A stretch of 32,599 nucleotides of DNA, taken from contig JAUCBJ010000787.1 in NCBI GenBank assembly GCA_032718475.1, positions 1 to 32,599 of the forward strand, read 5' to 3'. The notes beneath the pieces are model-generated. The model was not told the origin of the DNA. It saw only the letters and a program-made list of their open reading frames with translations, and searched no databases. This document shows, piece by piece, positions 11,116 through 32,077 of this stretch. Both the position numbers and the translations under genes were made by a program. Positions within the stretch are counted from its first letter, which is position 1; each line of letters begins with the position of its first letter. Source of the DNA: Nemertoderma westbladi (Eukaryota; Animalia; Xenacoelomorpha).

Positions 11116-11138
11116 TAAATATTAGTAAATATTAGTAA

Positions 11139-12012: not shown

Positions 12013-12149
12013 AATGTTCATGCTCTTTCACATGAAACCATCGAAATGTCAAAAAAAACAAGCGCGAAATCGCGCAAAGGTCTGCGTCTACTAACGCATG
12101 AACTGTCTCCTTGAATGGCTAACTACCAATCTTACTACAAAAAAATTTA

Positions 12150-13156: not shown

Positions 13157-13410
13157 CACAGACTTTTATAAAACTGCCATAGCATAATTATAACAGTTCG
13201 GAGATGGCTCGCAGTTTTGACTAGCCCCACAACCAACTGCATTAATATTGATATTGATGTTTCACCATTGCGATAAAACAAGTTTTTTTCGCCTTTTATG
13301 TAGGACGCCCCACTGAGAATGTAGCGAAGCTCACTGTTGCACACTGCAGCTGCATCAGTAGGTATAATCGGATTAATACGTAAGTGATTTAATATGTAGA
13401 AAGGGAGGCG

Positions 13411-13660
13411 GGGTAGCGTAGCTTAATTGGTTAACCGCAAGGCCTGCAATCAATAATTGGTTGTGGGTTCGATCCCTACCATGGTCCACCCACCCTTAAT
13501 CCTTGCCTAGTATCCAGAAATGGAAAATAAAAACAAATTTCCTCTGTGGAGTAATCCTAGGGGGTGGGCTCTGTAAATAAGTCGTAAGAAAGTGGCAATT
13601 TTATGCGATAAATTTATTGTTTCACTTTCTGTTATGTTTCATATTAAATTGATTTGAAAA
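13411..13660 (+). mobile_element. tRNA-derived SINE
   Basis: A box TAGCTTAATTGG (13419-13430) and B box GGTTCGATCCC (13466-13476), non-pairing acceptor stem, about 170-bp body ending in ATTAAATTGATTTGAAA. The 3' end is approximate. Confidence 0.7.
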
Positions 13661-13979
13661 CCCTATATAGCATTGGAGAACTCCTTGTCTTTCTCTTGAG
13701 TAGTACCGCTTCCGCTTTGCATGACATTCGCCGTAATGGCCAGCTTCAGCACAATCTTGTGTATTATCGGCCTCATGAAGATATTAGGCATGGAATGCTC
13801 ATGAGTTTCATGACACGCCGTTTAAAGTACACTGGTCTTGAAATTGCGGATGATTCGCAAAATTCACGGGTGATATGGAGTTATGGCGGAGCAATTTTGT
13901 CGATAAGCCGGCATAACATGCTTAATGCAGCAACACACATTTCTAAGCACTATATGTAGAACCCATGTACTGTTATGTA

Positions 13980-13985
13980 TTTATT
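13980..13985 (-). terminator. Candidate polyadenylation signal (AATAAA) of the dynein gene
   Basis: First minus-strand AATAAA I found downstream of the stop codon, about 650 nt away. Confidence 0.4.
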
Positions 13986-14633
13986 GTTACGCTGGTCGAA
14001 GTATTTTTATATGATAAATTGTCTTCTGTTCTTACTTAATCATTCTCCAAGTTAATTAAAATATTTGAGATAACCAGAAAAATATATTTAAATAGACATG
14101 AAAACAATATAAAAATATTATTAGCAATAAAAACACTAGTATTTACAAAACATGACATATTTACATGCACCCTCTTTCACAAAACGACTTTATCAACATA
14201 TTTTAGGAATACGAAACATTCGTAAAAACATAAACCAACCGTAGCCATACTGTCTGGGGTTACACGTTTGGTTAGCTAAATTATTTCGATTATTTAAAAA
14301 CAAGCAATATTATTTACATCAATTTAAAAACTTTACCAGACACAGTTGCCAAACAGTAAAAAGTACTCAATTAATAACGAAATTTACTATTTACAGAAAG
14401 CAACTAAAATTGATTCCTCACTTTTGACAAAGTACATATTTGGTATAATCAACAGAGTCAACCCCGACAATAACAGACGTGAATACGTCTTTTATGAACA
14501 AGTTGTAAAGTGGTTTTGGCGATAAATAACACACTTCTACTGTAGCTAATATAGCTAACATACCATTAAATAGTGTCCCAAGTAATTGGCAATACTGTAG
14601 CTAAATGTAACAGTTGATAGGCCTAAGCAATAG

Positions 14634-17600
14634 TTATTCCGCCTGACTGAGGAGTAGAGCTGTTCCTCGTTTCACCCAGTGGGTCGCTGGCATACTTCCA
14701 GATTTCAGCTCCACGCACTCCACGAACGAGGGTCTACCTGGCGTCCCAGAACGATTTGGATAGGCGTAAGTGGGACATATGTACAGTCCCTTTGTCTTTG
14801 TTTTCTTGTTTTCCACCGGCTTGAAATGAATAGAAGGCATCCGACATTGGAGCTGCATCGGTTCAGCTTCTATTAAACAGGAATTCTTCTTATCCCATCC
14901 CGCTCCCTCCAGAAACATACCTTTTATTAAAACCCCGTCCTTGGGGGGCCCAGTCACATTTGTATCATCGATGGTGAGCACAGAAAACTCCCAGGAGAGA
15001 GTATCAACTGATACATTATTCTGTCGAGCCGCTACTTGGGACACCGCTGTGAGGAAACCGGTGGGAAAGGTGAATCCACTCAACCAGAATATGATAGGGG
15101 GATGAGCAGTGGAACTCCATTTTTCCAACTGTTCTATTCGCATTACCAAATCTCGCACCCACGCTGCCAGTGGCTTGATGGAAGGGTAGGCCTTCCGCCA
15201 TAATGGTGGTACTTGTGCCTCTAAAATACACGTAAATGTTTCTTCCAAATCTGAAGACATGACAACTAAACCTTTAATGCCCTTGTCCAAATCGAGCAAC
15301 GATTTCCGGATAAGATTGAGTAAGTAATTGTAACGTTCAATCTCTTGTAACAGGACCACATTGAGAGGTGAGGGGTCATCCTTCATTATTTTCGCAGTCT
15401 GCCCATAATCCAAATCTTCAGGTACCTGTTTTAGAACGTTAGCGGAGAGCTCTAGTACCTTTGATTCGTTAGATTGGGCTCCCACCGTTGCAACCTGCGA
15501 TCCAAGTGACAGCAGAGTATCAAACAAAAGCTTCGTTTCAGCCTTTTGAGAGGAGATGTCAGCATTCGGGTGTTGTCCAAATACTTCTGGATGGTCCAAG
15601 TTTGGCAATGTCGATATATATTCTTTGTAAGATCGCAAACTGCCATCTCTAGGAATGTAATATGTGGGAAGAATAGAAAGCTTATAAAACGGTGTTTCTA
15701 GCACATCCTCATGGAAACAATCATTAATATAAGTCGTTAGTACTCGTCTATCATAATCGTCAGTGACGTGGCCACCATAATTAACTAATGCCACAAGGTA
15801 TTTGAGTGCATCCCAGGGTGTGTCATCGTATTCATCTAAGTAAAGGCTCAATAGGTGCTCACTGACTTCGAAATCAGAGTTGTTGAAACTGTAAAATACA
15901 TTCCACCCGAGTTGACCAAATTTTCGCCGCTCAATTAATATGGAATGGAAGAAGCAAAGACTGAATAACAAGCGCTGATATTTATCGTGCTTTCTTGTTC
16001 GCATAAACGATTGGTCAGTTACAGTATTGTACAACCGCTTCATGTTTGCCTTCACTCCACGTGGAGGCTCAGTGGTCATTTTTATTCCGGATTGGAGAAT
16101 GGCAATGGGAAAATCCGGATTTGGCGAGCTGCTTAGCCAAAGTCTGAAGTCTTTATGGGGCTCTTCCACTTGCAATTGTTCACAAAGTTTGTCTAATTGC
16201 GGCATCCATGACAAACTCAAATGACAATTTGCTAGGAATACCCAGTTTCCCTCTTTAATACCCTCTTTTATCATTCTTGTAGCGATTGGGGCTTGACCTT
16301 GTCCGAGAGATAGTGCCATTTGCGTCTGACCCATTCCATGTGCTAGGGCAGTTAGTGCTCCAGTGGGATCCACACCGGGGCTCAATACAAATATCAATGG
16401 TGTCTTACTTGATGAGTCGTCAAGGACAGCCTTCATATCCAACACTGGAGGCTCAACGAACCGTGTTCCTAAATTGTTTACAACGAAACTCATGGCCGCA
16501 AATGCAACCCGATCTGTTCTTAAGCAGCGCAAAATTACCATCTTTTGAAGTTCATTGCAAGAGTTTTCCCATTCCCCTGGCAATGGAGAAGTTTCCGGGT
16601 TGTCACTCATAAACCATATACTCCAATCTCGAGGATACTGCTCGAATGAAGTTATAATTCCATGGAAATTAGATAATTTTTCTAATTCTGATATGTTGTC
16701 CCAATCAGTTTCTGGCAACCAATTTGAACATGGGTTATCCATCTGTTCGTCCTTGTCCAAAACTATTCCACCAGTAAGAAAAAAAGTGAACTCTTCCATG
16801 TTAATTTTCCCAGCATTTTGTAATATCTTTACACACATATGGAAAGAAAACAACAGCTTGTGCTTCTCAAACAATCCACGACATGTGTAGCGGTAAACAG
16901 AATACGTATGCCAATCATTCAAGTTAGCAATTCTGTCTTCTAGTTTAGGACTCTTGTGTGACTTGTCAATACTTGTATTAAACAGGTCAATATAGGCATC
17001 TAAACTAAATTGATACATGGGATCGATTCTGCCCATGTCTATCAGTACAAAGAAGAGAATCGAAGCTCTTGTTGCACAAGGCCGATAACCTTCTCGTGCC
17101 GCATCTATTTTGGCTTCGGTTGTCTCACTCATTGCTAGCTGTTCAGTTACTTCCTGTGATGTTACCTTGGATGTTTGCAATGTGTTCACCAATTCTTCAT
17201 TTTCAAGTAAAGAACCTTCTGACTCATTTAGCAGTCGTAATATCTCATTCTCCAATTCTTTTAATTTCGTTTTCCCAGCAGCAATGTTTAATACCAATGA
17301 ATCTTTTTGTTCCTCTAACTCTGGCCTCTCTTTTCTCACAACGGTACCCAATAACTGGGCTTCGAGTCCTTGCTCCTTGACAGCAAAATTAACTATTGTC
17401 GTTTTTGCAGCGATTTCAGGTGTGTAATGAGGATTGCTGAGCTTCGTGGTAATGTAAAATTTAAAGTCTTGATTGTATTCTATTTCTTTATCACCAAGAC
17501 GGATCATATACCGTCCACCCAGTTTTATAAGAGATTTGTTTAATATTGGATTCAGACTTGGGTCAAGTTCCTCTTGGACGTTTTGTAACAAGACAGGATT

Positions 17601-20600
17601 TCCGAATTGTATAGAATTTTCAAGTGTACGCATATAATCATGCTGTTGTAAATCTATTGTCAAAAGTCCTCTCTTGCTTTCCATTTTTTTCACCCATTTC
17701 ACTGCTTGGCTTTGTGGGTCAACCATAAGAGGCCATCGGCGACCTCTGGTTACCATAACACCATTTTCTGTAGAAAACGTGTCGTTTGGAAGACCTTGAA
17801 TGTTCCACTGTCGGACAGTTGTTGGAATAGATAGGAAATTGGCAAAAGAAAATTCTGAGTCAGAAGGAATCAGAAGTTTTCTAATTTCTGGAAGCCATAT
17901 ATTATTAACAAGTTCTTCTCTGTAATTGGAAAGGAATGGACCAATGTAAGATAAAGATGCACTGGCAACCAAACAATCTCCAATGAGGTAACCTTTGCTT
18001 CCTTCAAGTTCTGCAACTGTAGATTCCCACCTATCTCTTTCACCAGCTAGACCACTAAGAAGCAGGGCAGCACGCTCCATTTGTATTTCCATCTTTTCAG
18101 CTTTAAGTCGCAATTCTTCCTTTTGTGCCAATTTTTCTTCATATTCATTTTTCAGCTTTTCTAATTGCGCATTCACCTCAGCTAACTTGCGTTGTTGTTC
18201 CGCCAGAGTCTTCTGTTTCTCAGCCAGCATAGCTTCTGCATGTTCCACCCTTTGTTTCTTTGGAAGAACAACTCGAAAAACTCTTCCATACACCTCCATT
18301 GCCCTAACCCACATGCATAATGATTTAGCTGCATTGGAAACTCTACCAACTGTATCTGGATAAAAGTCAGGTTGATTACAATATCCGGCAATTTTCTTCA
18401 ATGTTTTATCAGACATGTGATCTTTATCAAAATTAACAAGATTATCTATAAAATGCTGATCACCCAAGTCACGTTTTGCCTCAACCCATGTTGCCTCCCT
18501 TCCACGAAGTATCATAACTGCTTCCAATACTTTCTCTACAAGCTGCGGAGGTTTCACAAATGATTTTATTTCTGTTATATCCTTCTTGTTTAAAGACTTT
18601 AGTGCCTCCATGGCTTCCTCCAGGGCTGGCATAGCAACTTTGAGGTCTTCCAGTGCAGCATCTGCCATCTCCCTGCATTTGATTTCTTCTTCACCAATCT
18701 TTTCTGCTCGAACAGTGACTTGCTTTTGTTGTTCATCTGCATCTCTCTTTTGTTGCACAAGAACTACTAAATATTCCTCACATTGCTTCTGGAACTGTGC
18801 TACTTTGGTTTTCGCGATATCAAGGTCTACTCTCATAACCTCTACCTTTGTGCGAGTTTCATCAATTTTTTGAAGACCATTTGTTAACTTACTTATCTCA
18901 GCACCAATTTCTAAACTCTTTTCTGCTAATAATTCTTTATAGCCAGTAACCAGCTCCAAATAATTTGTAGGAGTAGTATAATTTCTACGCTTCAACTCAA
19001 TATACATTTTTTCACTCATTTTGGAGACACTTTGGTGCATAGTAACAAACACTGATGATATATTCGTCTTATTATCTTCTGAGCCTAGATCCATGTCAGC
19101 GAGGTACCTTTCAGCAACTTCCAATAAAGCATCTTTAGGCCACTCAGAGAAATAATCAATTGCTGCACAATTGACAAAAGCAGGATACATTCTTATTCTA
19201 TTCCTAAATGCTTCACCAACAGGGCTCATGCACAATATTACATGGAGATTACTTCGGACTCTTTCAATCAAAAACTTAAATACATTTTCAGGTGTGTCAT
19301 GTATGTCATGTTTTCTAACCTCCTCGCTAAGAGCATTGCGAACCTCTTCAAATTCATCCGATTTGTACAAATTCGGAATTTCGCCACTACTAAGTATATT
19401 ATTGATGTCTTCTAGGAATGAAACGTCAACAATTTGTGTATCATTAAACAGAAACACAGTTGGTTTGTTATCAACGCCAGCGAGTCTATATAGTCGTTTC
19501 AAGTCATCACGCCACTCTTGCTTCCTGTAATGTTTCGTAACCTCTATTTGAAAGGTGGTGTACTCAAGTATAGAAGCTGCTAGCCTTGACAATGATTGCC
19601 GCCCTGATCCTCCAATTCCAATCAGCATCATATTTCCTCTTGCCTGTCCAATAACTCTGACTATTCGACAAACATGTTCTATAGCATCCCTAAACATTAC
19701 AAGATCCATACCAACATAGCCAGGTGTCATATTGTAATCTTCAAGTGCGTTTTCAATGAATGTTTTTAATTCCTCTATATTTTGTAAATCTTCATAAACT
19801 TTACCATCTTTTGATAAAAATGAACCAAAAATAGGAGGCTGCTTTTGGTGGCAAATGTTATGAAATGTCTGCTCAAATAAAACTCCCAATTTATCACTAA
19901 GAATTATTACAAAATCGTCAAAATCAGTTTCATCATTAAGTCTATCAGCAAACACTCGGAAACATTCATGAATCCACAACCTTGTCAATGAAACTTTTGT
20001 ATCATGATAATCTTTACTGCAACGCATCAACCCTTGGAAAACTCGAGATATATCTCTAAGGTTAAATAAATAATGTATTTTGCTTGGAGTAGGGAAGTAG
20101 CGATTAACCACAGCATCATACATTTCTATTGTAGCTTGAAGCATTATGTCTCCTAAGGGCTTTAGATCCTCTTCGAAGTCTGACAATTTATGTGAAATCA
20201 TGCTTCCAAATATTCGCTTAATCTGACTTTCTGTTGGGAAGGTCATGTTTAATAAATTAAAACGACTTTGCAGTCTTTTAGAGATTACCATTCTACCACC
20301 ACCAGGAGGTCCCATTGCAGCAAGAATTTGCATATCACGAACAACTTTAGTTACTTGTTTTGCCCTATCATACCAAAAGCCATAGTCCATCCATTGTCGC
20401 ATCAACTCTAGTGGAGGTTGTGATCCAAACAAGTCTTTCATTGGCATATTGAAATCATCTAAATAAGTTACTAATTTTTTGCCTCCAATGGGAACATAAA
20501 CACCCTTTGTTCGCTTTTCAACCTTGCTTTCAATAATATCTTGAACATTATTACTGCTTGTTTGGGCAGAAAGATTGATAGTTAAGACACTGTATTGTGT

Positions 20601-23600
20601 GGTATTCATACTTTGGAGTACAAACTCAGCAACACTGGTTTTACCTGTGCCGACTGGACCAACTAGAAGCACAGGAACCCCTTTAGCTAGAAGATTATTA
20701 ACAATGAATTGATAGCGAACTGTATCAACAGTTGGTACCATTAGCTTATAGAATGGAGTATTTGGGACAAATTTCCATCCTCCTTTCAGTTTATCATCCC
20801 AATGGGCCCAGGTTCTATTCTTCCCATCAACATAGTATTCATAAACAGTATCTTTATTTGGAAATGACCCTTCTATTTCTCTGATGTATGTATCAATTTT
20901 CTTTCTACCTTCTTCATCAACTGCACCGCAAATGCTCCATAACATACAGAACATAAACCACATCTCCAACATTAAACTATAATTGGCGTCATCATTGGGA
21001 TTCGCACCAAATGCAGATGTTGCAAGGATATCCAGCAAATTGCAAAGGGAAGAAATGCCATTAATTTCAGCAATAGGCACCAGTTCCTTACAGTTTTGTT
21101 TCTTAAAATCAATTATCTTTGCCACATATTTATCAAATAATCTTTTAAATATGTCAGCTCCAGATTTCCTTTTTTCAAGCCATGAGTTTACGTAAGGCTT
21201 CCACCCAAGATCATTATAGTCATTGTAAACCATACCGCAACGGGAAACGGTGGCAGGGCTAGCTACAGATAAATTTTCGACCTCAAAAAGCAGAGAAACT
21301 TGATCTGGCATTGAAATTCGTTCACCATTAATGAGTGTCAGTACTTTATTGTCATCCATAACACTGTTCATAGACTCAATCCAAAGTGTATCAACTGGGC
21401 CATCAAACAACATCCATTTCTGTTCAGGTTTTTCATCTGCACAAGTTAAACGCATGACACTAGAGAGAATGCCATCTGTCCATTCATTTGTATTCAAATC
21501 AAACTCTCCGTAGAGTTCCCCTAAACTTAGGGCTTTGGGATTAATAACATATTCAATAACTTTGGTAAAGTTTGAATCTCCTTCCTTGCTTAGCCTACTC
21601 ATAGCAGCCTGTAATACACGCCATGTACACGATTTACCACTACCAGTTTCACCAACTATCATAACAGAATGCCGAGAATTTTTGGTTTCAAGTAATTGGA
21701 TAACTTTGACAATAGCAATTTCTATGGCTTGGTAACCAGCAGCTTGAAATTCTGTCACAATGGCTTTGCGAATCGTGGAATAGTCTACCTGTGGTGTATC
21801 AATGCCAGGGAATAAGTCTGACATAATGCCATTAAAAAGTGGTCTGTCAGCAGCAGTAAATTTTGGTATATTCATGTCCTTCATGGCAAACAGCAAGATC
21901 TCTTCATCTGCCATATTTGGATGGGCCCGCTTCTTTTTACCAGCATAGCGAAGCACACTTACCAGAGCGCGCAGACCAAAATCATAATGGTCTTGCTTTG
22001 ACAGCTGCTGCACAGCCAAATAATATAATGTATGAACTTTTTTAGCCAAAGTTCTTGTATTACTAAACCCTTCACCAAATAGAATATTTTCAGCTATATA
22101 TGCAGAATCTGGCACAACCATTGCAATTGGACGGAACATGGATGTCAAGTTATCAGGAAGCTCAGTTCGTCCAGCATAACCAGGATTCATTGTAATAAAT
22201 ATTCCACACGAGCCAACTAAGCGAATATCTCTCCCTTCAAAATTGAAATTTATCTTCCTTTGTTTTAAGCTGCTTAAAATTGACAGGATTTGTTGAGCAA
22301 CTACTGATAAAACCTCAATATTAATGCGGTTAAATTCATCAAAGCAACCCCAAGCTCCAGTCTGAGCAAGCCCTGAGTACATTCTGCCCATGCTTTTATA
22401 ATCCAGCCCTTCACTGCAGTTGATAACAATAACATAGTTACCGAGAGCTTTACCCAAATCCTTAGTAGTTTCGGTTTTACCAGTACCAGCTGGACCTTTT
22501 GGTGATCCTCCACGATTAATGTGAAGAGCTGTTGTCAAAGTCATATAACATCGATCTGTTAATGGAGTAACAACTAAACGACCACTGTTTCCCAAGTACT
22601 CATACCCATAACGAAACTGAGTAGTTGTCTGACGGACAATACAATCATCACTTTCTTTGTCCCAATATACACGAAGTTGCATGAGCCACTCAAAAGCTGT
22701 AACATCTGTGCAACCTGATTTTAAAAGTTTCTCTATAACATCCCGTGCATGTACTTCTATGGTCACCAATGCAACTATTTTTGCACGTTGTATTTTTGTT
22801 AGATTTCCCCGAATAATATCAGTACATTTCTCTAACAATCCAATTTGTTTTCGCTTCAATGATTTAAGGGGTTTTTTGGACTCTCTCTCTCTGACAAGAG
22901 CTAAACCTCTTGTGGTATCAGAAGTCCATTGGATTTGGCTGGAAGTAATAAGTAGTTGTCCTGCCCATTCTTTTATCCATTTATCACGTTTACTGGCTTG
23001 CTTCTTTAGAGCCAAACGACATTGTTTTAACAACTCCTTTAAAGTCCAACGCATTGTACGTTCAATATCACATAACCAGGCCTCAACTGGACCTTCAAGA
23101 ATAACTTGCTGAATAAATTCAACATATTCACCATCTGCTGAATACATTCCCAATGCCTCATGCTTTTGTGACATTCCAATTTTTTGCATTTTTAATTTGT
23201 AAATATTATCAAAACACTTTTTCATATGAGGCTGCACAGATTCTGGGTTTTTACTTTGGCCCAAAATTTCCAACAGATCATCATTAGATACAAAGTAAAA
23301 TCGTGGAAATATTTGCCGTTTTGTTTCCAGATACATATCCAAACTTTTCTGGATTTCTTCTAGCTTCCCATTCATATCATTTAGAGTTTCCAACATCCCT
23401 TCATGATGAGTCCCTCTGTAAGCATTATTGTCTTGATTAAGTCTCGACATAATTGCTAACCAATTTGTATTAACATCATCAAATTCATTGCTTTCTCTGG
23501 GTAATTGCTTTCTAATATCTTCCCCAAAAAATATATTTTCTAGGTACATCCACTGCCTCTGTACAGTAAGAATCATTTCAATCACTTCCATAATTCTACT

Positions 23601-26600
23601 CAAGGTTCGCTCCCAACGATCAACTTCCTTTTCAAATGGTTTCACATAGCGAGAAGCTTTCATTGTTGACATTGTCACTTGATTATCTTCTAATGTCTGA
23701 AATAGTTCGTCAGTTGTTTTCAATCTGAAGTGGCCCCTGTCCTTGTAGGGTCCAATTTCGAGGAACGTATTCTTCCAAGTATTATCAATGGCTTCTAAGG
23801 ATTGTTCAATTAACAACTCTTTTGATGCTGCACCAGAAATTTCACTTATCTTGTCAGCATATTGATCTAATTGCAATGCAATTATTTGTTCTAGTGTAAA
23901 GCTATCTGAATTTTGATCAAATTCCTTTCCAACCTCTGCTTTTAATTCAACCCAATGCCGATCTCGCATTGCATGATTTCGCAAATCAACAATAAGCGGC
24001 ATTGTTCTTTTGAATTGCTCTACTCTAGATTTAGATACAGCAACAATCTCCCATTTTTTGTCCTTAACTTCTCTAGCAATTCTGTTTAATTTTTTATATA
24101 ACTGACCACACTGAAGTTCCATATTATCTGCTTCTAACTCCTGAAACGTCAACGTTTTCCAATTTTCCCACATTGTTTCCCAATCCTTAGTTAGTAACCA
24201 AACCTGCTCAAGTTGATCTAACTCTTTCTCCATGGCTAAAATTTCTTTAGATGGCGGCTGATCTATTTTAAATATTGCCAAGCCTCGTCTTATATTTGCT
24301 TCTTGTTCCTTTAACAAACGTAATGCCTCACGTCTTGATGCAATATCAGCCAAAGCTTCATCAGGAGTTAAGGATGAGGAGAAGGGGCCATTCTGGTGGA
24401 AGTCCTCAACAGTTGATCCCACTTGTTTCTTGAATTCATCTGCAGAATGAATCAACCCAGTTTTAAATTTATCTTTGTGTTTCTTAAGCATAGCTTCAGC
24501 ATCAATTAAGTTTTGCTGGAATGTAATCCACTCATGTTCCAAAAGATCTAGTTTCTCTTGAGACTCCTCTGGAATTTGAACCTCATATTTTTCAAGAATG
24601 GCAAATTGTTCATGAATTGGTGAGATACGGTCCTCGATTTTATGCAAATCACCCTGTAGTTGCTCCAGTAACTTAATACTAGCTCCCAATTCATCTAATG
24701 TGGTTGGAACAACACCAACTTGCTCTCCATTCTTTTTCAAAAAGTATGTCAAATTATTGAGAGCTGTAATAGCCATGTCCTTCAATAATGTTGTAAATTT
24801 ATTTTGCCATTCCTGGCAATGGCTTAGAATGGAAAACTTCAGTGGAGAACAATCTAACATGACAAATTGAATGCTCAACACAGTTTCTTCTTTTTGTGCA
24901 TTGTTGGCAACTTCAGTATAGCGACCAATATCAGAGTCAAAACTAGCTACACCAGGATTAAGTTTATGATATCTACGAATAAATGCATCCTTGTTTACTT
25001 CCCATATTTCTCTATAAGAATCCCAGGTAGCCAAGTACTCATGCAATGATGTTGCATTATCTATCATTCCTTGTGCGATTATATGCATCAACTTACCAAC
25101 CTCATGATCAGCAGCAATTACCATATGAATTGGGTCTTTTGTTGATTTTTTAGCTGTGAGTAGGTTCGGAAGTCTGTCCAAAGGTGAAATAGTATCAGTC
25201 AAATGAGACCCAATACTATTTACTAATTTTGCAAGACCTTTCAGAGTTGGGTCAAATTCAACTCGATCACCATCAAGAACAACCTTAACTTTAAACAAAG
25301 GATTGGGTGGTGTCTTACCGTCTCCATTGATTGCCTTGGATAATTCCTGCAGTGACCATTTAACATTCAACCTGAATGCTTCTTCAACCATACGATCCAT
25401 CTTATCAGTGTATCTGTACCAATGGTTCTGTACCTCTTGGCCATCATTTCGGAAATATTCACATGTTTTCATCAATATATCCACAATTTCGATATGATTC
25501 ATAGCCAACCGTTCTGTGGTTGCTATTCTGTGCTTGCTTTGTTCCACATCGAACTGACCACTATCGTGAACCTTTGATACATTTATTCTTACCAATAGCA
25601 TCTCAGATATTGTCCTGCACAATTTGCTAATTTTAATGTTAGTTAGTTTGTATTCATCAACAACAGCTTGTACCTTACCAGCCTGGTTGTAACACTCCTT
25701 GATAAACAGTTCAGCAACTCCTTTAGATGCCCATGTAAGTTTGCTCAATCCAGGTACGATCTTTTTATCCAGAAAACGTATTCTCTCTCGGAATAAACCT
25801 CGCTCTTCTAAGCTGAGAGAAGATAAAATCCTATTGTATCCTCTAACAACTTGTAGGACATTCTCTCTCAGTACACGCAAGTCATCCTTACGCTCATAGA
25901 GTTCAGCAGCATAATGGGGTACTTCAAAGAGAATGCGTTGCCAATAATAAATTTCTTGGAGCAACTTAGCTGTAATTTTATCAAAATTTGAATCTAACAT
26001 TCCTGTTCTTTCTTGGCTGCGACACATCAAAGGTACATCTAATCGTCGTACAGGCTCTTTCTCAATTGCTAAAGTCCACTCTCCAAAATTCTTTCTAATA
26101 AGTTCATCAAGAGCTTGTACAAGTTGCAAATAGTTAGAACGAGCTTCCTCACCCATTCCTGTTGTCGGAAGGAAGTATGCACCCTCAATTAGTGTCATGC
26201 TCTTATCAACTCTATTTTTTAATGCTTTAGCCCATACAGCAGTGCCTGCATAGTAAGGTTGTAAAGGTGTCAACCATGCAGCTCTTCCGCTCAATTCCTT
26301 CTTAACCAAGTTCATCTCATCATTAAATATCTGAAATATCTCGGCAGTCTTCTTATCCAGTGTTCTTAAAATAGCCTCCCGCGAATGTAAATGTTGAAAT
26401 ACTTCCAGAAGATTGATACCTTCCTCGATAGTTCTTACTGATTCAAACGCGGAGTTGATTGTGTTGGTCATCATCACCTCAAGGTCTTTAACTCCTGATC
26501 TAAATTTATTGTATTCATCATGCCAGACAGTTGCTTTCACATCTAAAATGTGCTTCTTCACGAGCCTAAGGGGATTCAGACATCGACAAAATGCATTGTC

Positions 26601-28241
26601 AATTTCCAACAGGTTCCTGGCAACTTCTGGTCCACGCTGTCCAGCAAAACAGGGTAATGGTATTCTAGATCCCTCCTCATACCTCGAGAAGTGGCTCTGG
26701 CAATTACACACATCAATAAGGTCTTTGCAGCGTTGAATAAATGCATCAACTTGGGCAAATATACTAGTAGGATCCAAAACCCATCCAGTGAGGCTGGTTG
26801 AATATTTTGTGTGGACAGCACTTAAATGTGTGTATGATTCCTTCCAAGCTTTACAACATTGAATACTCTCATTGAGTGTTTGCTGGCATGATTGAACATG
26901 CCCATCGAATATCTTTTCAAGAGAAATTTCAGAGCAACATCTATTAATAATTTCGTTTGATACTTTACGAAACAGGACAGTAAGTCGTTCCCTGGTATTG
27001 TAAAATTCCGAATTAACCCAGATTATTCGGATAAGGTTGATAATTACTGGTATTAGTTTAGGAATGTCTTTAAGCATAGCGTTTCCTAGGTCCTGACATG
27101 GCTGCTTCAATATTTTTAGAAAATGAAGGTTTGATTGTGCTTGTAAAGATCCATCCTGAATTTGTTTACTAAGCTTGGCAAAAGGTGGTAAGTATGAGCT
27201 GCGGGCCATCTCCAATATCCTTTCAATCCTAATAACTCCAGGTTTGTTCAGCTGTTTACTAATGCCAGAAAGGTCGTCGCACCTGTTTGACCAGAAACGG
27301 AGTTCATCTAGAGGCCCAGTGTTCTCAGCCGTTTCTAGTGCGTCTTGAGAACTTAACATCTCCTTAATTTGTCTCGTCCAATGTATCATGGCCATCTCTA
27401 AGCGGCCAACCAGTTCCTTGTCCTTTACAACCTCGTCGTCTTCGAGGTCATCACCTTCTGTTGGAACATAAAGGACTGTGTATCCTTCCATTTTATACCT
27501 AGTGTCTGTCAAACAACTCAAGAATCGATGTAGATTGCTTGAAAATTCATTCCTTATGCTGTCCGGCCACGTTTTATTCCCCAAAAACAAAGGCGCATAG
27601 ACACCATTCATTAGCTTCAACAGACTTTGAATATGAGACGTCTGAACAATACCATACTGACATTTTTCACTGAAATTGCGGCCAGTAACTTCCTGGCCTT
27701 CGGATCTAATAAAGTAAGCCAGTTCGTCAACAACAAATGAGGGCACAACATGTTCAACACAAAGACCTTTATGCTTATCTATATAAATCACAAGTAACTG
27801 CTTGGAAAGATCCTCAATCCAAACATTTAGAACTTGGTCGTGTTCATCCGTCCACATATCCAACGTAAATCCAGTGAGTACAACAGATCCTTTAACTAAA
27901 GCTCCCAAATCGACAGGTGGTAATTCCGATTCAATGTCAGACTCTAGCTCAGAACTCTCTGCCGTTTTCCCAGCCATGCTACTTCTGGTGCTATAGCGAC
28001 TAACGGACAACCTCCCTGATCGCCCTGCCCCAGACGCCCCCCTCTGGCTTGTTCTTGCACTCTGAATGTCTAATGGGGCTATCGATGCGGCCGTAGACGC
28101 AACAGGTGTGCTGGTAGGCCCAGCTGCAGTTGAGCCTTCGCCCAGCAGAGACCCCAATGGTTGATCGGTAGGATCATCAGCTCCAACAACTTTGGCTTCT
28201 GACGCGTTATCAATCACATTAACTTCACCCGCGTCCGCCAT
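14634..28241 (-). CDS. DNAH2: Axonemal dynein heavy chain 2 (inner-arm I1/f beta chain), 4535 aa, single coding exon
   Basis: Full dynein architecture: long tail, linker, P-loops GPAGTGKT (AAA1), GETGSGKS (AAA2), GPVGTGKT (AAA3) and GIGGSGRQ (AAA4), CFDEFNR Walker B, coiled-coil stalk with MTBD, and C-terminal HWVKRGTALLL. Tail motif WPDSIRNEFSSNLHRFLSCLTDTRYKMEGYTVLYVP resembles vertebrate DNAH2 as recalled; orthology should be confirmed by phylogeny. Confidence 0.95.
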   Translation of the reverse strand: MADAGEVNVIDNASEAKVVGADDPTDQPLGSLLGEGSTAAGPTSTPVASTAASIAPLDIQSARTSQRGASGAGRSGRLSVSRYSTRSSMAGKTAESSELESDIESELPPVDLGALVKGSVVLTGFTLDMWTDEHDQVLNVWIEDLSKQLLVIYIDKHKGLCVEHVVPSFVVDELAYFIRSEGQEVTGRNFSEKCQYGIVQTSHIQSLLKLMNGVYAPLFLGNKTWPDSIRNEFSSNLHRFLSCLTDTRYKMEGYTVLYVPTEGDDLEDDEVVKDKELVGRLEMAMIHWTRQIKEMLSSQDALETAENTGPLDELRFWSNRCDDLSGISKQLNKPGVIRIERILEMARSSYLPPFAKLSKQIQDGSLQAQSNLHFLKILKQPCQDLGNAMLKDIPKLIPVIINLIRIIWVNSEFYNTRERLTVLFRKVSNEIINRCCSEISLEKIFDGHVQSCQQTLNESIQCCKAWKESYTHLSAVHTKYSTSLTGWVLDPTSIFAQVDAFIQRCKDLIDVCNCQSHFSRYEEGSRIPLPCFAGQRGPEVARNLLEIDNAFCRCLNPLRLVKKHILDVKATVWHDEYNKFRSGVKDLEVMMTNTINSAFESVRTIEEGINLLEVFQHLHSREAILRTLDKKTAEIFQIFNDEMNLVKKELSGRAAWLTPLQPYYAGTAVWAKALKNRVDKSMTLIEGAYFLPTTGMGEEARSNYLQLVQALDELIRKNFGEWTLAIEKEPVRRLDVPLMCRSQERTGMLDSNFDKITAKLLQEIYYWQRILFEVPHYAAELYERKDDLRVLRENVLQVVRGYNRILSSLSLEERGLFRERIRFLDKKIVPGLSKLTWASKGVAELFIKECYNQAGKVQAVVDEYKLTNIKISKLCRTISEMLLVRINVSKVHDSGQFDVEQSKHRIATTERLAMNHIEIVDILMKTCEYFRNDGQEVQNHWYRYTDKMDRMVEEAFRLNVKWSLQELSKAINGDGKTPPNPLFKVKVVLDGDRVEFDPTLKGLAKLVNSIGSHLTDTISPLDRLPNLLTAKKSTKDPIHMVIAADHEVGKLMHIIAQGMIDNATSLHEYLATWDSYREIWEVNKDAFIRRYHKLNPGVASFDSDIGRYTEVANNAQKEETVLSIQFVMLDCSPLKFSILSHCQEWQNKFTTLLKDMAITALNNLTYFLKKNGEQVGVVPTTLDELGASIKLLEQLQGDLHKIEDRISPIHEQFAILEKYEVQIPEESQEKLDLLEHEWITFQQNLIDAEAMLKKHKDKFKTGLIHSADEFKKQVGSTVEDFHQNGPFSSSLTPDEALADIASRREALRLLKEQEANIRRGLAIFKIDQPPSKEILAMEKELDQLEQVWLLTKDWETMWENWKTLTFQELEADNMELQCGQLYKKLNRIAREVKDKKWEIVAVSKSRVEQFKRTMPLIVDLRNHAMRDRHWVELKAEVGKEFDQNSDSFTLEQIIALQLDQYADKISEISGAASKELLIEQSLEAIDNTWKNTFLEIGPYKDRGHFRLKTTDELFQTLEDNQVTMSTMKASRYVKPFEKEVDRWERTLSRIMEVIEMILTVQRQWMYLENIFFGEDIRKQLPRESNEFDDVNTNWLAIMSRLNQDNNAYRGTHHEGMLETLNDMNGKLEEIQKSLDMYLETKRQIFPRFYFVSNDDLLEILGQSKNPESVQPHMKKCFDNIYKLKMQKIGMSQKHEALGMYSADGEYVEFIQQVILEGPVEAWLCDIERTMRWTLKELLKQCRLALKKQASKRDKWIKEWAGQLLITSSQIQWTSDTTRGLALVRERESKKPLKSLKRKQIGLLEKCTDIIRGNLTKIQRAKIVALVTIEVHARDVIEKLLKSGCTDVTAFEWLMQLRVYWDKESDDCIVRQTTTQFRYGYEYLGNSGRLVVTPLTDRCYMTLTTALHINRGGSPKGPAGTGKTETTKDLGKALGNYVIVINCSEGLDYKSMGRMYSGLAQTGAWGCFDEFNRINIEVLSVVAQQILSILSSLKQRKINFNFEGRDIRLVGSCGIFITMNPGYAGRTELPDNLTSMFRPIAMVVPDSAYIAENILFGEGFSNTRTLAKKVHTLYYLAVQQLSKQDHYDFGLRALVSVLRYAGKKKRAHPNMADEEILLFAMKDMNIPKFTAADRPLFNGIMSDLFPGIDTPQVDYSTIRKAIVTEFQAAGYQAIEIAIVKVIQLLETKNSRHSVMIVGETGSGKSCTWRVLQAAMSRLSKEGDSNFTKVIEYVINPKALSLGELYGEFDLNTNEWTDGILSSVMRLTCADEKPEQKWMLFDGPVDTLWIESMNSVMDDNKVLTLINGERISMPDQVSLLFEVENLSVASPATVSRCGMVYNDYNDLGWKPYVNSWLEKRKSGADIFKRLFDKYVAKIIDFKKQNCKELVPIAEINGISSLCNLLDILATSAFGANPNDDANYSLMLEMWFMFCMLWSICGAVDEEGRKKIDTYIREIEGSFPNKDTVYEYYVDGKNRTWAHWDDKLKGGWKFVPNTPFYKLMVPTVDTVRYQFIVNNLLAKGVPVLLVGPVGTGKTSVAEFVLQSMNTTQYSVLTINLSAQTSSNNVQDIIESKVEKRTKGVYVPIGGKKLVTYLDDFNMPMKDLFGSQPPLELMRQWMDYGFWYDRAKQVTKVVRDMQILAAMGPPGGGRMVISKRLQSRFNLLNMTFPTESQIKRIFGSMISHKLSDFEEDLKPLGDIMLQATIEMYDAVVNRYFPTPSKIHYLFNLRDISRVFQGLMRCSKDYHDTKVSLTRLWIHECFRVFADRLNDETDFDDFVIILSDKLGVLFEQTFHNICHQKQPPIFGSFLSKDGKVYEDLQNIEELKTFIENALEDYNMTPGYVGMDLVMFRDAIEHVCRIVRVIGQARGNMMLIGIGGSGRQSLSRLAASILEYTTFQIEVTKHYRKQEWRDDLKRLYRLAGVDNKPTVFLFNDTQIVDVSFLEDINNILSSGEIPNLYKSDEFEEVRNALSEEVRKHDIHDTPENVFKFLIERVRSNLHVILCMSPVGEAFRNRIRMYPAFVNCAAIDYFSEWPKDALLEVAERYLADMDLGSEDNKTNISSVFVTMHQSVSKMSEKMYIELKRRNYTTPTNYLELVTGYKELLAEKSLEIGAEISKLTNGLQKIDETRTKVEVMRVDLDIAKTKVAQFQKQCEEYLVVLVQQKRDADEQQKQVTVRAEKIGEEEIKCREMADAALEDLKVAMPALEEAMEALKSLNKKDITEIKSFVKPPQLVEKVLEAVMILRGREATWVEAKRDLGDQHFIDNLVNFDKDHMSDKTLKKIAGYCNQPDFYPDTVGRVSNAAKSLCMWVRAMEVYGRVFRVVLPKKQRVEHAEAMLAEKQKTLAEQQRKLAEVNAQLEKLKNEYEEKLAQKEELRLKAEKMEIQMERAALLLSGLAGERDRWESTVAELEGSKGYLIGDCLVASASLSYIGPFLSNYREELVNNIWLPEIRKLLIPSDSEFSFANFLSIPTTVRQWNIQGLPNDTFSTENGVMVTRGRRWPLMVDPQSQAVKWVKKMESKRGLLTIDLQQHDYMRTLENSIQFGNPVLLQNVQEELDPSLNPILNKSLIKLGGRYMIRLGDKEIEYNQDFKFYITTKLSNPHYTPEIAAKTTIVNFAVKEQGLEAQLLGTVVRKERPELEEQKDSLVLNIAAGKTKLKELENEILRLLNESEGSLLENEELVNTLQTSKVTSQEVTEQLAMSETTEAKIDAAREGYRPCATRASILFFVLIDMGRIDPMYQFSLDAYIDLFNTSIDKSHKSPKLEDRIANLNDWHTYSVYRYTCRGLFEKHKLLFSFHMCVKILQNAGKINMEEFTFFLTGGIVLDKDEQMDNPCSNWLPETDWDNISELEKLSNFHGIITSFEQYPRDWSIWFMSDNPETSPLPGEWENSCNELQKMVILRCLRTDRVAFAAMSFVVNNLGTRFVEPPVLDMKAVLDDSSSKTPLIFVLSPGVDPTGALTALAHGMGQTQMALSLGQGQAPIATRMIKEGIKEGNWVFLANCHLSLSWMPQLDKLCEQLQVEEPHKDFRLWLSSSPNPDFPIAILQSGIKMTTEPPRGVKANMKRLYNTVTDQSFMRTRKHDKYQRLLFSLCFFHSILIERRKFGQLGWNVFYSFNNSDFEVSEHLLSLYLDEYDDTPWDALKYLVALVNYGGHVTDDYDRRVLTTYINDCFHEDVLETPFYKLSILPTYYIPRDGSLRSYKEYISTLPNLDHPEVFGQHPNADISSQKAETKLLFDTLLSLGSQVATVGAQSNESKVLELSANVLKQVPEDLDYGQTAKIMKDDPSPLNVVLLQEIERYNYLLNLIRKSLLDLDKGIKGLVVMSSDLEETFTCILEAQVPPLWRKAYPSIKPLAAWVRDLVMRIEQLEKWSSTAHPPIIFWLSGFTFPTGFLTAVSQVAARQNNVSVDTLSWEFSVLTIDDTNVTGPPKDGVLIKGMFLEGAGWDKKNSCLIEAEPMQLQCRMPSIHFKPVENKKTKTKGLYICPTYAYPNRSGTPGRPSFVECVELKSGSMPATHWVKRGTALLLSQAE

Positions 28242-28479
28242 TTCTATAAATTAGATCTGAAAAATTTGCAAAGTAATTTAATGTGTATTAATGCTATGTA
28301 TCTAATTGTATCTAATATAATGCTACATTCTACCTGTATACAAATCGATAAGTATTAGATTAGATTAACCATTAATCATTAGATAATTTACGGTATATTA
28401 GGTAAAAAAATCCCTTAAAATTTTACGGGCAATATTTTCTTATTATGTTGGGAAATATTATACTACGTAATATTTCATA

Positions 28480-29556
28480 TGACACCCCCCCCCCCCCTCC
28501 CCCCCTAATTTTTCTACAAATCTTAATGAGATTGCATTACATTTGAAACAGAGATAATTTCACCTCCCGACCACTGACTGGGTGACCCAGAATTTTTATT
28601 TTTGCTTTCAATCTTTAGATACAAGCGTTTAAAAAAATGTCTCCGTCGATATTGCACCAGTTACACTACAGTTATTCTTCTACCTTATAGCTGTTTGTTG
28701 GTACAAATGGAAAGCTGGCCATGCAAGGATTCCAAATATGTAACACAATTTGAATTTCGTTGAGAAATAGCTGAGATATGAGCGTTCAAATGTTGCATGG
28801 TTATGCACCGGCGCGAGGCTATTTTATTCTATTTAATAAATGCATCATAATCTGGAATATTTTGTTTATCCAAATACGTAGCTGGGCAACAATGCATTAC
28901 ACGTTCGTGGGGCCTTCGCGCAGCACGAAGTGAGCAAAGCCTTTAGCATATGGGCACCATTAACGAGTTGTCTGACGTTAGTCAGAAGGCTTCAACACAA
29001 TACTCGTCCTCCTCTTGTGCCTCGTTGCGTTCGTTCGTTTTTGACGAAACTTCAGATTCTTTTTAAACTTTTGAAGGACTACATACGTACCAAGTTTCGT
29101 TTAATTTCATTAAGGAATAACCGAGTTATTAGCGATCAAAACGTTACGACGACAGACGACGACCGACGACAACAGACGACGACGACGACGACAGACAACT
29201 CTCCAATGGCACCCATATGCTAAGGCTTCGCTTACTTCGTGGCTCGCCCCACATCTTTGATCATACTATTACTTAGCTATTCAAACATTTAAAAAATGCA
29301 TGTAAAATGGAACATTTGAACGCTCATATCTCAGCTATTTTTCAAATTGTGTTACATATTTTGCAATCCTTACATCCTTACAATCCTCCAATATCGCTGG
29401 AGACACTTTGTTTAAACGCTTGTAGCTAAAGATAGAAAGCAAAAATAAAAATTCTGGCTCACCCAGTCAGTGGTCGGGAGGTGAAATTATCTCTGTTTCA
29501 AATTTCATGCAATCTCATTAAGATTTGTAGAAAATTAGGGGGGGGGGGGGGTGTCA
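28480..29556. mobile_element. Foldback/MITE-like element with long (about 270-330 bp) inverted arms
   Basis: 28480-28805 is the reverse complement, with indels, of about 29295-29556 (for example GAGATAATTTCACCTCCCGACCACTGACTGGGTGA versus TCACCCAGTCAGTGGTCGGGAGGTGAAATTATCTC). Poly-C and poly-G runs lie near the ends. Confidence 0.88.
28907..29252. mobile_element. Nested non-autonomous element with about 60-bp inverted termini and a (GAC)n microsatellite
   Basis: GTGGGGC...CACGAAGTGAGCAAAGCCTTTAGCATATGGGCACCATT...GAGTTGTCTG versus CAGACAACTC...AATGGCACCCATATGCTAAGGCTTCGCTTACTTCGTGGCTCGCCCCAC; GAC/GACA tract at about 29147-29197. Confidence 0.8.
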
Positions 29557-30420
29557 CTGAATTACGACACAATATTCTGGGACATGGTGTATACTACATT
29601 CTACATACTTAAAATCTGTTTATTGTTTTTTTTACAGATCTGGTTACAAATAAACAAATATATCCATCAATCTCTAATCTTTGAACTATTTTATTCTGAA
29701 ATAAATAATCAAAATCGGGAGAAAAAGAATACTTTTCCCAAGGCAAAAAAGTAACCCTTAGGGTTGCATTAAAGTAATATAAGAAAATGTGAAAATATCT
29801 TGGGTGGAAGTCCTTAAATTTAAATTCATCGAACATCGAAGTAGAAAAGGTTTGCGCGTAATTTAAGTCAAATCCATGCACACACTCAAAAAGTTATCGC
29901 AACTTTAGCTACTGCAAGGCGTACAAGTATATACTCCAAAACAAAACTCAATACTCAATATTGGTTTTATGTAGTGCTGCTCTTTACTTAAAGAAATAAA
30001 TATTCCAGAACATTAAATTATTATTTAACATTGAGTAAATCAGCCTCTAGAATTGAATAGTAAAATAATTAAACCGCTGAAACTATGAAAGCAGTATAGT
30101 ACGTAGGTCCTAATATATATGTAGGCTATCATTATTTCGTTATATCTTTTATTAAGAATTAACTAATTAAGCAACAAAAAGTAAAAATTTAAGAATATAA
30201 TTACGTACAGTATTACATGGATATATACGAAGAGAAGTGAACGAGAATACCCAACGCATGTAATAAATAATTATTTTCGCAAGAAAAGTTTCCTACGTAG
30301 TTTTTCATCAGTTGCAGTCGTTTCTAATGTTCAATCTTTGAATACTGTACAATATAGTTTAAAGTGTTCTGATCCTCGTGTTTTTATTTCCACTAACTAA
30401 AAAAATTACTCAACACCAAA

Positions 30421-30600
30421 TAAAATAAAGTCACCCCAAATAAAATAAAGTCACCCCAAATAAAACAAAGTCACCCCAAATAAAATAAAGTCACCCCAAA
30501 TAAAATAAAGTCACCCCAAATAAAATAAAGTCACCCCAAATAAAATAAAGTCACCCCAAATAAAATAAAGTCACCCCAAATAAAATAAAGTCACCCCAAA
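30421..30600. repeat. 20-bp minisatellite x9 (TAAAATAAAGTCACCCCAAA), decaying into degenerate copies to about 30810
   Basis: Read directly; one substitution across nine copies. Confidence 0.95.
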
Positions 30601-32063
30601 TAAAATTATTCAAACACCGAAATAAATTTTTCAACACCAAAAACAATTATTGAACACCCGAATAAATAAATGCTCCCAAAACAAATAATTCACACCAAAA
30701 CAAAATGATAAAACCTCAAAAATAAATACAAAGAACCTCAAAATAAATACATATTCCCCAAAATAAAAGCTTATTCCTCAAAAATAATCAAATATTTTAA
30801 CAAAATAAACAGACTCAGTTACAGACTCTCAGTTGCAGAATGCGGCTATTGGTACGAGGGTCGTCGGTATAATATTATTAAACATTTTGTTTGATTTATG
30901 GAAATAAATAATAAATGAATTATTTTGTATACAAATAAATTTTTCATGTAATATTACTGTAGGTGCTGGAAGAATTGTTTTTGGTTGACAAATTAATAAT
31001 TGTTTTTGGGGGATGTATAATTGTTTTCGAGGGTAAATAAATAAAACTAATTGGAAACGAAAGTGATAGTACATTTAATGTTTTTTTTAATTGTACTTGA
31101 TTTAAAAATTAACATTAAATTAAATGAAATTTAATTCACACAAAAATTAATAAATAAAATGTAGTAGCTCTAATGGGCCACCATACATTTGTTGTGTACA
31201 TGTTCGCACACACCATAGTGATGCTTACTGGAGATCGAGGCTATATCACCCGAACCTTCTGTTGTACTGTATTTTGAAACAAAGTCGCGAAAACTCACTC
31301 CTCAAAAATGTTCATACAAACTAAGGAGTACGGATCAGAAAATTGTTCATACTGTATTTGAGCGCGGCACGTGGAAATGTACACCAAATTCCACACACAC
31401 ATGTATTTATTAGGCCTACATATTCTTATAGGGGCCCTTGCGCTGTCAGTCAGATGGGGTAAGGATGGGTTAAAATTAGGTTAAAATTAAAATTAAAATT
31501 AGTTAAAATTAGTTAAAATTAGTAGGCTTAATTTCGGGTCTTGTACCGTGTACAATACTGGTGGGCCTACACAGCAACTGTTATTTTGCCTAATACAGGT
31601 CCCAGAGGTAAATCCTAACCCCACGGCATGGCCTACCCCACGGGCTGTTCTGTTACCTTTCTGACTGACAGCGCAACCTCCCTCTTGCATATTCTGAGAT
31701 TATTGAGTACCGGTAATGAATTGATTTTATTTAATTAATCAAGGGTTACTTACAGCTGCTAGTGCACCATAAAAAAGCTTCAGTGTATCTTCGATCTTAA
31801 GAAGTAAATACTTTCCGTTACCTGTGTAGAACTGAAGTAAAATAAAAATCACTTCCAATTATCCAATTAGTTGTTTCAGAGTTCAATAATTCCACAACTA
31901 CATATTTAATATAATTTATGTGTGAATGTTGGACCTAATCTACACATATATTTTCAGTGTGTCTGTATAAAATCATTTACCGGTACCGGTAGGCCAAAGA
32001 GGCCTAATAATATTATACTGTGTCTACAACAATATCATATGAAGGTTGCAAACTGTTTATAAT

Positions 32064-32077
32064 GTTGCCCTAGCAAC
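32064..32077. promoter_or_regulatory. RFX-binding X-box, GTTGCCCTAGCAAC
   Basis: Near-palindromic match to the X-box consensus GTTNCC-N(0-3)-RGYAAC, upstream of a motile-cilia gene. A half-site (AGGCAAC) lies at about 32137, with forkhead-like TGTTTA/TAAACA cores nearby. Confidence 0.7.

What the first reader, a model, noticed from the sequence alone, without database searches (positions are those of the whole stretch)
14634..28241. Complete 13.6-kb axonemal dynein heavy chain with no coding introns
Seen: one uninterrupted 4535-codon ORF embedded in repeat-rich genomic DNA, so this is not a cDNA. All motor motifs are intact. Known: animal DNAH genes normally have dozens of exons. Inference: either a very long functional retrogene, or in-place loss of all coding introns by recombination with a reverse-transcribed mRNA. 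A 5'-UTR intron plus an X-box promoter (listed separately) fits in-place loss or promoter capture.
Basis: partly seen in the sequence, partly recalled or inferred. Interest (0 to 1): 0.75.

Follow-up and report, generated by a model that had tools for sequence, protein, structure and literature searches.

The report
Intron-free giant cilia motor genes
In a repeat-rich invertebrate genome, the 13.6-kb coding sequence of the cilia motor gene DNAH2 has no introns, and several sister dynein genes likely lack them too while other genes likely keep theirs, which points to introns likely being erased gene by gene through RNA copies rather than to one stray retrogene.

Summary
Confirmed: 14634-28241 (-) is one 4,535-codon ORF encoding a complete DNAH2 (inner-arm I1/f beta) orthologue. 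It is genomic. Contigs of 12.6-13.8 kb from three public runs (two samples) cross it unbroken, and contigs run on into non-coding flanks. All 30 coding variants tested are synonymous.

It is probably not a one-off. Of 7 other dynein-like genes with contig lengths shown, 3 lie on single 13-15 kb contigs sized like a whole intron-free coding sequence. One of these has at most about 100 extra bases over 1.56 kb of coding sequence. Two more lie on 10-12 kb contigs, and 2 only on contigs of 1.2 kb or less. Unchecked scan notes report intron-bearing genes in this genome, one a dynein.

Best reading: repeated, gene-wise, RNA-templated loss of all coding introns, leaving a predicted 5'-UTR intron. In-place loss versus orphan retrogenes is unresolved, because no genome is held and synteny could not be tested. 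The host is an unplaced bilaterian. The scan had not noted this on other DNA. A known mechanism at unusual scale.

The parts
14634..28241 (-). Single-exon coding sequence of a DNAH2 orthologue (4,535 aa)
   Evidence: unbroken contigs in X1-X3
25713..27404 (-). DHC_N1 tail domain (aa 280-843)
   Evidence: Pfam PF08385, E 8.9e-144
22473..22496 (-). AAA1 Walker A (aa 1916-1923), main ATP-hydrolysis site
   Evidence: role from established dynein knowledge
17886..18890 (-). Microtubule-binding stalk (aa 3118-3452)
   Evidence: Pfam PF12777
28242..28256 (-). 15-nt non-coding leader between the predicted acceptor and the ATG; holds an in-frame stop
28257..31753 (-). Predicted 3.5-kb GT-AG 5'-UTR intron (not verified by RNA); holds 55 ATGs, a foldback element and a 20-bp tandem repeat
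   Evidence: donor and acceptor motifs; repeats; inference
28480..29556 (.). About 1.08-kb foldback, MITE-like element with three nested inverted repeats (145-nt arms, 93% complementary) inside the predicted intron
31754..31831 (-). Possible 78-nt non-coding exon with a 3-codon upstream ORF; an acceptor-like site before it suggests a second small UTR intron (speculative)
32064..32077 (.). X-box-like palindrome (RFX site; consensus recalled), predicted ciliary promoter element
   Evidence: 1 match, 0 in 100 shuffles, but with a pattern chosen after seeing the site; looser patterns give 4 sites in the window
13980..13985 (-). Nearest AATAAA downstream of the stop (about 650 nt); candidate poly(A) signal; no genomic poly(A) remnant

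Best explanation
This is an intact DNAH2 dynein gene whose 13.6-kb coding sequence has no introns, likely the animal's only copy, and it likely lost them, as several paralogous dynein genes likely did, by recombination of the chromosomal gene with reverse-transcribed copies of its own spliced mRNA, sparing a predicted 5'-UTR intron. Shown: the single-exon ORF, its genomic nature, its orthology and the purifying selection on it. Indirect: paralogues D, E and F are intron-free or nearly so. Inferred: (1) the ancestor had many introns; (2) loss was RNA-templated, in one sweep or several 3'-to-5' sweeps, with reverse transcriptase from the genome's retroelements acting in germ-line cells that express sperm or ciliary dyneins; (3) the process hit some genes completely and left others split, giving an all-or-none pattern; (4) the protein works as the beta heavy chain of inner-arm dynein I1/f, expressed from an RFX/X-box promoter 3.8 kb upstream.
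For: Paralogue geometry. Records D (13,744/13,573/13,782 nt), E (15,034/15,035/15,039) and F (13,138 in X2) reach 1,687, 2,318 and 1,426 codon-lengths 5' and 2,894, 2,693 and 2,953 3' of the AAA1 CFDEFN motif. In 68 full-length natural dyneins that motif has 1,217-2,116 aa before it and 2,372-3,085 after it. Mean record length in these runs is 61-123 nt. Tight test: the 2,212-nt X3 record of F holds pieces 1,558 nt apart in DNAH2 and leaves at most 103 spare nt (226 in X1). The same interval is 527-707 aa in 90 natural dyneins against 536 here, so almost no room is left for introns. The 8 unmixed loose-end consensuses, translated by hand, read in frame as dynein sequence. Loss looks precise: only five indels of 1-2 aa beyond residue 108. 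All 30 coding variants tested are synonymous, binomial p 6e-21. The RT model predicts loss of adjacent introns, 3' bias and germ-line expression (PMC3652778, passages). A BEL/Pao-type gag lies in the window. DHC genes are called 'very long and exon-rich' (PMC5100056, passages).
Against: That interval is assigned to record F by equal depth values in the joint table. Of 8 non-self records per run, 1 was not displayed. The contrast with intron-bearing genes rests on 2 short records (B, C) and on unchecked AI notes that were selected for intron features. Selection would also purge imprecise deletions, so precision does not prove an RNA template. Reverse transcription aborts often (PMC3652778), so a 13.6-kb cDNA is hard to make in one piece. 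The UTR intron and promoter are predictions, and the candidate exon carries an upstream ATG. The ancestral intron number came from no call (the search for it was empty). No synteny was available.
Confidence: 0.5

Rival explanations
1. Lineage-wide intron poverty: this animal lost most introns piecemeal across the genome, by any mechanism, and the dyneins are simply the longest examples; it is then an ordinary trait of the lineage.
For: Three to five paralogues share the state. Acoelomorph genomes are repeat-rich with 3.3-6.4 exons per gene, almost all genes in one short-read assembly were single-exon, and ZO1 and Eya have fewer exons than in other bilaterians (PMC10565955, passages and section 3.4). 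The best-fitting placement of this protein is sister to Ambulacraria, a position proposed for that group (recalled).
Against: Scan notes (unchecked) report multi-exon CFAP70, CLUAP1, RhoGEF, aconitase and PRP8 genes and an intron-bearing dynein gene in this genome. Records B and C are short in all three runs. Under independent loss, clearing even 40 introns from one gene with probability 0.05 needs about 93% loss per intron (hand arithmetic), which sits badly with genes that keep many. The taxon is not established.
Confidence: 0.25
2. Orphan retrogenes: full-length retrocopies of DNAH2 and some paralogues inserted at new sites, captured or brought a promoter and UTR intron, and replaced their intron-bearing parents.
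For: Intronless, under strong purifying selection, and no parent seen: the longest non-self match over 2 kb of the AAA1-AAA3 region is 75 nt, although orthologues average 85% aa identity in its AAA1 part. Orphan retrogenes are known and strongly conserved (PMC3548309, abstract). The flanks are repeat- and retroelement-rich.
Against: It needs at least four independent 12-14 kb retrocopies, each gaining a working promoter. No poly(A) remnant, and no flank-to-flank repeat longer than 9 nt, although these decay. An X-box with a 5' intron right before the ATG fits a native ciliary promoter.
Confidence: 0.19
3. A young or ordinary retrocopy whose intron-bearing DNAH2 parent still exists elsewhere in the genome.
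For: X4 holds a second DNAH2-like record (80% identity over 291 nt in AAA6; 367 letters where the window has 361, so it lacks this gene's 2-aa deletion). Short record B matches a stretch that is 93% conserved among DNAH2 orthologues. The tool filters out some contigs without notice.
Against: Depth over 15068-18169 is flat in X1-X3, so that record has no counterpart there and may come from another organism in sample S3. No exon-length DNAH2-grade match appears in AAA1. The protein is only 62-71% identical to its best relatives and lies on a long branch, with no sign of relaxed selection.
Confidence: 0.05
4. Assembly artefact or cDNA contamination.
For: X1 and X2 may be the source of the window, and the run type is guessed rather than on record.
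Against: Independent sample X3 shows the same unbroken stretch with its own synonymous alleles and joins to both non-coding flanks; flanking repeats are at 300-1,100 times the ORF depth in X1-X3.
Confidence: 0.01

Closest known systems
DNAH2 / inner-arm dynein I1/f beta heavy chain (class 6 of PMC5100056; Chlamydomonas DHC10)
   Same: Domain order, motifs and length; best PDB hits are DNAH2 (6,523 and 6,455 bits) and Chlamydomonas 1-beta (4,705); hits named as other dynein classes score at most about 2,800, and two unnamed putative chains 3,533 and 3,462.
   Different: No coding introns. DHC genes are described as exon-rich; about 80 exons in vertebrate DNAH2 is recalled and comes from no call.
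mRNA-mediated (reverse transcriptase) intron loss (PMC3652778, passages seen)
   Same: Adjacent introns lost together and precisely, with a 5'-most intron predicted to remain.
   Different: The cases in the passages seen are a few adjacent introns per gene in rodents; here a whole 13.6-kb coding region is cleared, apparently in several paralogues.
Orphan retrogenes (PMC3548309, abstract and outline seen)
   Same: Intronless, no parent seen, strong purifying selection.
   Different: A new genomic position is not shown here, and several very long paralogues are affected.
Drosophila Y-linked dynein fertility factors kl-2, kl-3, kl-5 (PMC6508621, passages seen)
   Same: Axonemal dynein heavy chains with about 14 kb of coding sequence in satellite-rich DNA.
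   Different: The opposite outcome: kl-3 has 16 exons and megabase satellite introns, whereas here the coding introns are gone.
Low exon counts in repeat-rich acoelomorph genomes (PMC10565955 passages and section 3.4; PMC6451197 one passage)
   Same: Repeat-rich genomes with few, long exons.
   Different: The main text of PMC10565955 never mentions dynein, intronless genes, retrogenes or intron loss. Whether this organism belongs to that group is not established.

Membership tests
DNAH2 (I1/f beta heavy chain) | Complete heavy-chain architecture with the long DHC_N1 tail | tested here: met
DNAH2 (I1/f beta heavy chain) | Closest to DNAH2 among dynein classes | tested here: met
   (named hits among the top 120 are DNAH2 wherever the name gives a class)
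DNAH2 (I1/f beta heavy chain) | Intact AAA1 P-loop and Walker B | tested here: met
DNAH2 (I1/f beta heavy chain) | Located in the axonemal I1/f complex | not testable with these tools
   needs proteomics or imaging
RT-mediated in-place intron loss | Precise loss of adjacent introns | tested here: met
   no intron relics; five 1-2 aa indels beyond residue 108; the ancestral intron positions themselves were not available
RT-mediated in-place intron loss | 5'-most intron retained | tested here: inconclusive
   motifs only; no spliced read seen
RT-mediated in-place intron loss | Gene stays at the ancestral locus | not testable with these tools
   no genome held; no neighbouring host gene found in the window
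RT-mediated in-place intron loss | Germ-line expression | not testable with these tools
   needs tissue-resolved RNA data
Orphan retrogene | Intronless coding sequence under purifying selection | tested here: met
Orphan retrogene | Parent gene absent | tested here: inconclusive
   no parent-grade match in X1-X3, but some contigs are filtered out and one DNAH2-like record appears in X4
Orphan retrogene | Poly(A) remnant or target-site duplication | tested here: not met
   such marks decay, so this is weak
Orphan retrogene | New genomic position | not testable with these tools
Lineage-wide intron poverty | Paralogues also single-exon | tested here: inconclusive
   of 7 displayed, 3 fit a whole coding sequence, 2 have 10-12 kb contigs and 2 are short; indirect
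Lineage-wide intron poverty | Low intron density genome-wide | not testable with these tools
   no genome held; unchecked notes point against uniform poverty

The most novel reading that the evidence does not exclude
An animal genome in which intron evolution has gone all-or-none. Many genes keep introns that swell with splice-junction satellites to tens of kilobases, while most of the longest ciliary motor genes have been wiped clean of every coding intron by RNA-templated recombination, possibly favoured because a gene with dozens of swelling introns becomes too long to transcribe. [quoted passage not shown]
Probability: 0.3. Interest if true: 0.78.

Novelty: new variant of a known kind. Interest (0 to 1): 0.55.

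Why it matters
How introns are lost is still debated. A family of 12-14 kb coding sequences, some members fully cleared and some still split within one genome, allows direct tests. Per-gene bimodality, 3' bias in partly cleared paralogues, synteny and germ-line expression each separate the RT, deletion and retrogene models. It also shows that an animal axonemal dynein heavy chain can be kept under strong purifying selection with no coding introns. If the trait proves uniform across the genome, it is an ordinary lineage feature and of modest interest.

Tried and rejected
No whole genome is held, so TBLASTN for a parent, synteny and genome-wide intron counts could not be done.

No RNA holder listed; this is no evidence on expression. 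X4 is labelled 'DNA?'. Its contigs cover 14126-17485 and 18121-19173 but not the 5' part, and flanking repeats are only about 3 times the gene's depth. That could be 3'-biased RNA, but it cannot be shown from contigs and is not used as evidence.

Rfam: 0 matches. The exact protein is not in the 15-billion collection, and no relative above 63% identity in the tail was among the 1,468 scored candidates. Naming 10 of 150 representatives found no close relative: an insect, a bug, an oomycete, an acanthocephalan, a leech, a heterolobosean cluster and unnamed records.

Taxon placement: FastTree on 26 of 120 hits left the query unresolved among bilaterians (support 0.39-0.55). An AU test on 13 of those 26 preferred sister to Ambulacraria and did not reject Spiralia or Chordata. 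It rejected Cnidaria, inside echinoderms and sister to all Bilateria (one gene, 2,000 replicates, flagged as too few).

Hidden in-frame introns: rejected. Poly(A) remnant and target-site duplication: not found.

Literature: the searches showed no listing that reports an intronless animal dynein heavy chain. Most hits were seen as listings only, and the library lacks most subscription papers. No supplements were read; those of PMC5100056 (and its CyMoBase gene structures) and of PMC10565955 may hold relevant exon counts. Scan look-ups for earlier intronless-dynein notes gave nothing relevant.

Full report
Observation. The window holds one ORF of 4,535 codons at 14634-28241 on the minus strand. 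It carries the whole dynein heavy chain domain set, with intact AAA1-3 P-loops. A search with the tail (residues 110-1300) returned DNAH2 proteins, at 54-63% identity in the 120 listed. Over the full length, 26 of those are 60-71% identical. Solved-structure sequences rank DNAH2 and Chlamydomonas 1-beta far above other named classes. Against 22 full-length orthologues there is no insertion that could be a retained intron; beyond residue 108 there are only five indels of 1-2 aa. An in-frame stop 4 codons before the ATG closes the frame upstream.

It is genomic and functional. Four runs hold the stretch or part of it. In X1 and X2 (one sample, possibly the source) and X3 (another study), single contigs of 13,655, 13,780 and 12,579 nt cross the ORF. 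Contigs reach past the ATG into non-coding DNA and overlap with contigs of the 3' flank, where repeats reach depths of 22,000-35,000 against 30-109 for the ORF. I tested the 30 coding variants shown in that call's table. I dropped 4 non-coding rows and 6 rows that come from a paralogue piece, and 92 further rows were not displayed. The displayed rows hold 5 of 5, 8 of 9 and 25 of 26 differences of the main X1-X3 contigs, but only 8 of 16 of the main X4 contig. All 30 are synonymous, where 79% of sites are non-synonymous (p 6e-21).

Surroundings. Upstream, an acceptor-like site ends 15 nt before the ATG, a donor-like site lies at 31753, and an X-box-like palindrome lies at 32064-32077. The predicted 3.5-kb UTR intron holds a foldback element and a 20-bp tandem repeat. 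None of this is verified by RNA, the X-box pattern was chosen after seeing the site, and the candidate exon has a short upstream ORF. Downstream lie a candidate poly(A) signal at 13985, dispersed repeats, a 46-bp and a 17-bp satellite, and a BEL/Pao-type gag. There is no poly(A) remnant or target-site duplication.

The paralogue test. Laying X1-X3 on the AAA1-AAA3 region at 80% likeness brought 9 records per run: the gene itself and 8 others, 7 of them displayed. I call these A-G. D, E and (in X2) F are single contigs of 13-15 kb. Their ends lie about where a whole intron-free dynein coding sequence would end: 1,426-2,318 codon-lengths 5' and 2,693-2,953 3' of the CFDEFN motif, against 1,217-2,116 and 2,372-3,085 in 68 full-length natural dyneins. 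D and E end at nearly the same places in all three runs, and mean record length is only 61-123 nt. For F the test is tight: a 2,212-nt record holds matches 1,558 nt apart with at most 103 nt to spare, while that interval is 527-707 aa in the 90 of 150 representatives where both motifs were found (536 here). A and G reach 11,793 and 10,457 nt in one run each. B and C are short in all runs (447-1,244 nt), as exons between repeat-laden introns would be, though they could be strays. The 8 unmixed loose ends translate by hand as dynein coding sequence; by recalled motifs, E looks DNAH10-like, A outer-arm-beta-like and the undisplayed record like cytoplasmic dynein. This evidence is indirect, because I never saw the paralogue sequences.

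Genome context. My reading before consulting scan notes was lineage-wide intron loss. Unchecked notes on the same genome describe many intron-bearing genes with giant splice-junction satellites, among them CFAP70, CLUAP1, a RhoGEF, aconitase, PRP8 and one dynein gene. They moved me to a mixed, gene-wise picture. They are leads, selected for intron features, and I did not test them.

Host. The protein is on a long branch, unresolved among bilaterians. A topology test prefers sister to Ambulacraria but does not reject Spiralia or Chordata. That is compatible with a xenacoelomorph, a group reported to have repeat-rich genomes and few exons per gene (PMC10565955, passages and section 3.4; PMC6451197, one passage), but it is not established.

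Mechanism. Best reading (0.5): repeated RNA-templated, in-place removal of all coding introns from DNAH2 and several paralogues, sparing a 5'-UTR intron, as the RT model predicts (PMC3652778, passages). Rivals are lineage-wide piecemeal loss (0.25), orphan retrogenes (0.19; PMC3548309, abstract), a surviving intron-bearing parent (0.05) and artefact (0.01). Against my reading: there is no synteny, the ancestral intron count is recalled, selection alone could explain the precision, cDNAs of this length are unlikely in one piece, and one DNAH2-like record in X4 is unexplained.

Comparison and novelty. The protein is an ordinary DNAH2. The mechanism is known; the scale and the repetition across a gene family are what stand out. 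Ten literature searches showed no listing that reports intronless animal dynein heavy chains, within an open-licence library and with most hits seen only as listings; no supplements were read. The Drosophila Y-linked dyneins show the opposite fate, megabase satellite introns (PMC6508621, passages). Verdict: real, a new variant of a known kind, interest 0.55.

Noticed in passing
window 1-3390 (-): 1,130-aa ORF open at the window edge, with DUF1759 (E 1.2e-10) and an Ala/Glu/Lys-rich repeat: gag of a BEL/Pao-type LTR retrotransposon (label recalled from the domain), preceded by about 3 kb of AT-rich leader.
   Followed up: partly
window 7056-11115 and 11138-12013: 17-bp satellite of about 232 copies with longer internal duplications, directly followed by a 46-bp array of 19 copies at 97% identity.
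   Followed up: no
window 28480-29556: Foldback element with three nested inverted repeats and G/C homopolymers just inside TG...CA ends; no clear target-site duplication.
   Followed up: partly
window 13155-13232 and 13855-13931: Two short dispersed repeats at very high copy number (bin depths up to about 35,000) in the 3' flank; a tRNA-like stretch near 13410-13490 seen by eye had no Rfam match and may be a SINE head.
   Followed up: no
run X4, records 28 and 29 (window 14884-16750): Two dynein-like records at 78-84% identity that are not seen, or only partly seen, in X1-X3; record 29 has the ancestral spacing that this gene lacks (2-aa deletion after residue 3968). Another organism in the sample, or an intron-split gene.
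   Followed up: partly
window 30413-30811: 20-bp tandem repeat of about 15 copies that degrades into 21-bp units, inside the predicted UTR intron.
   Followed up: no
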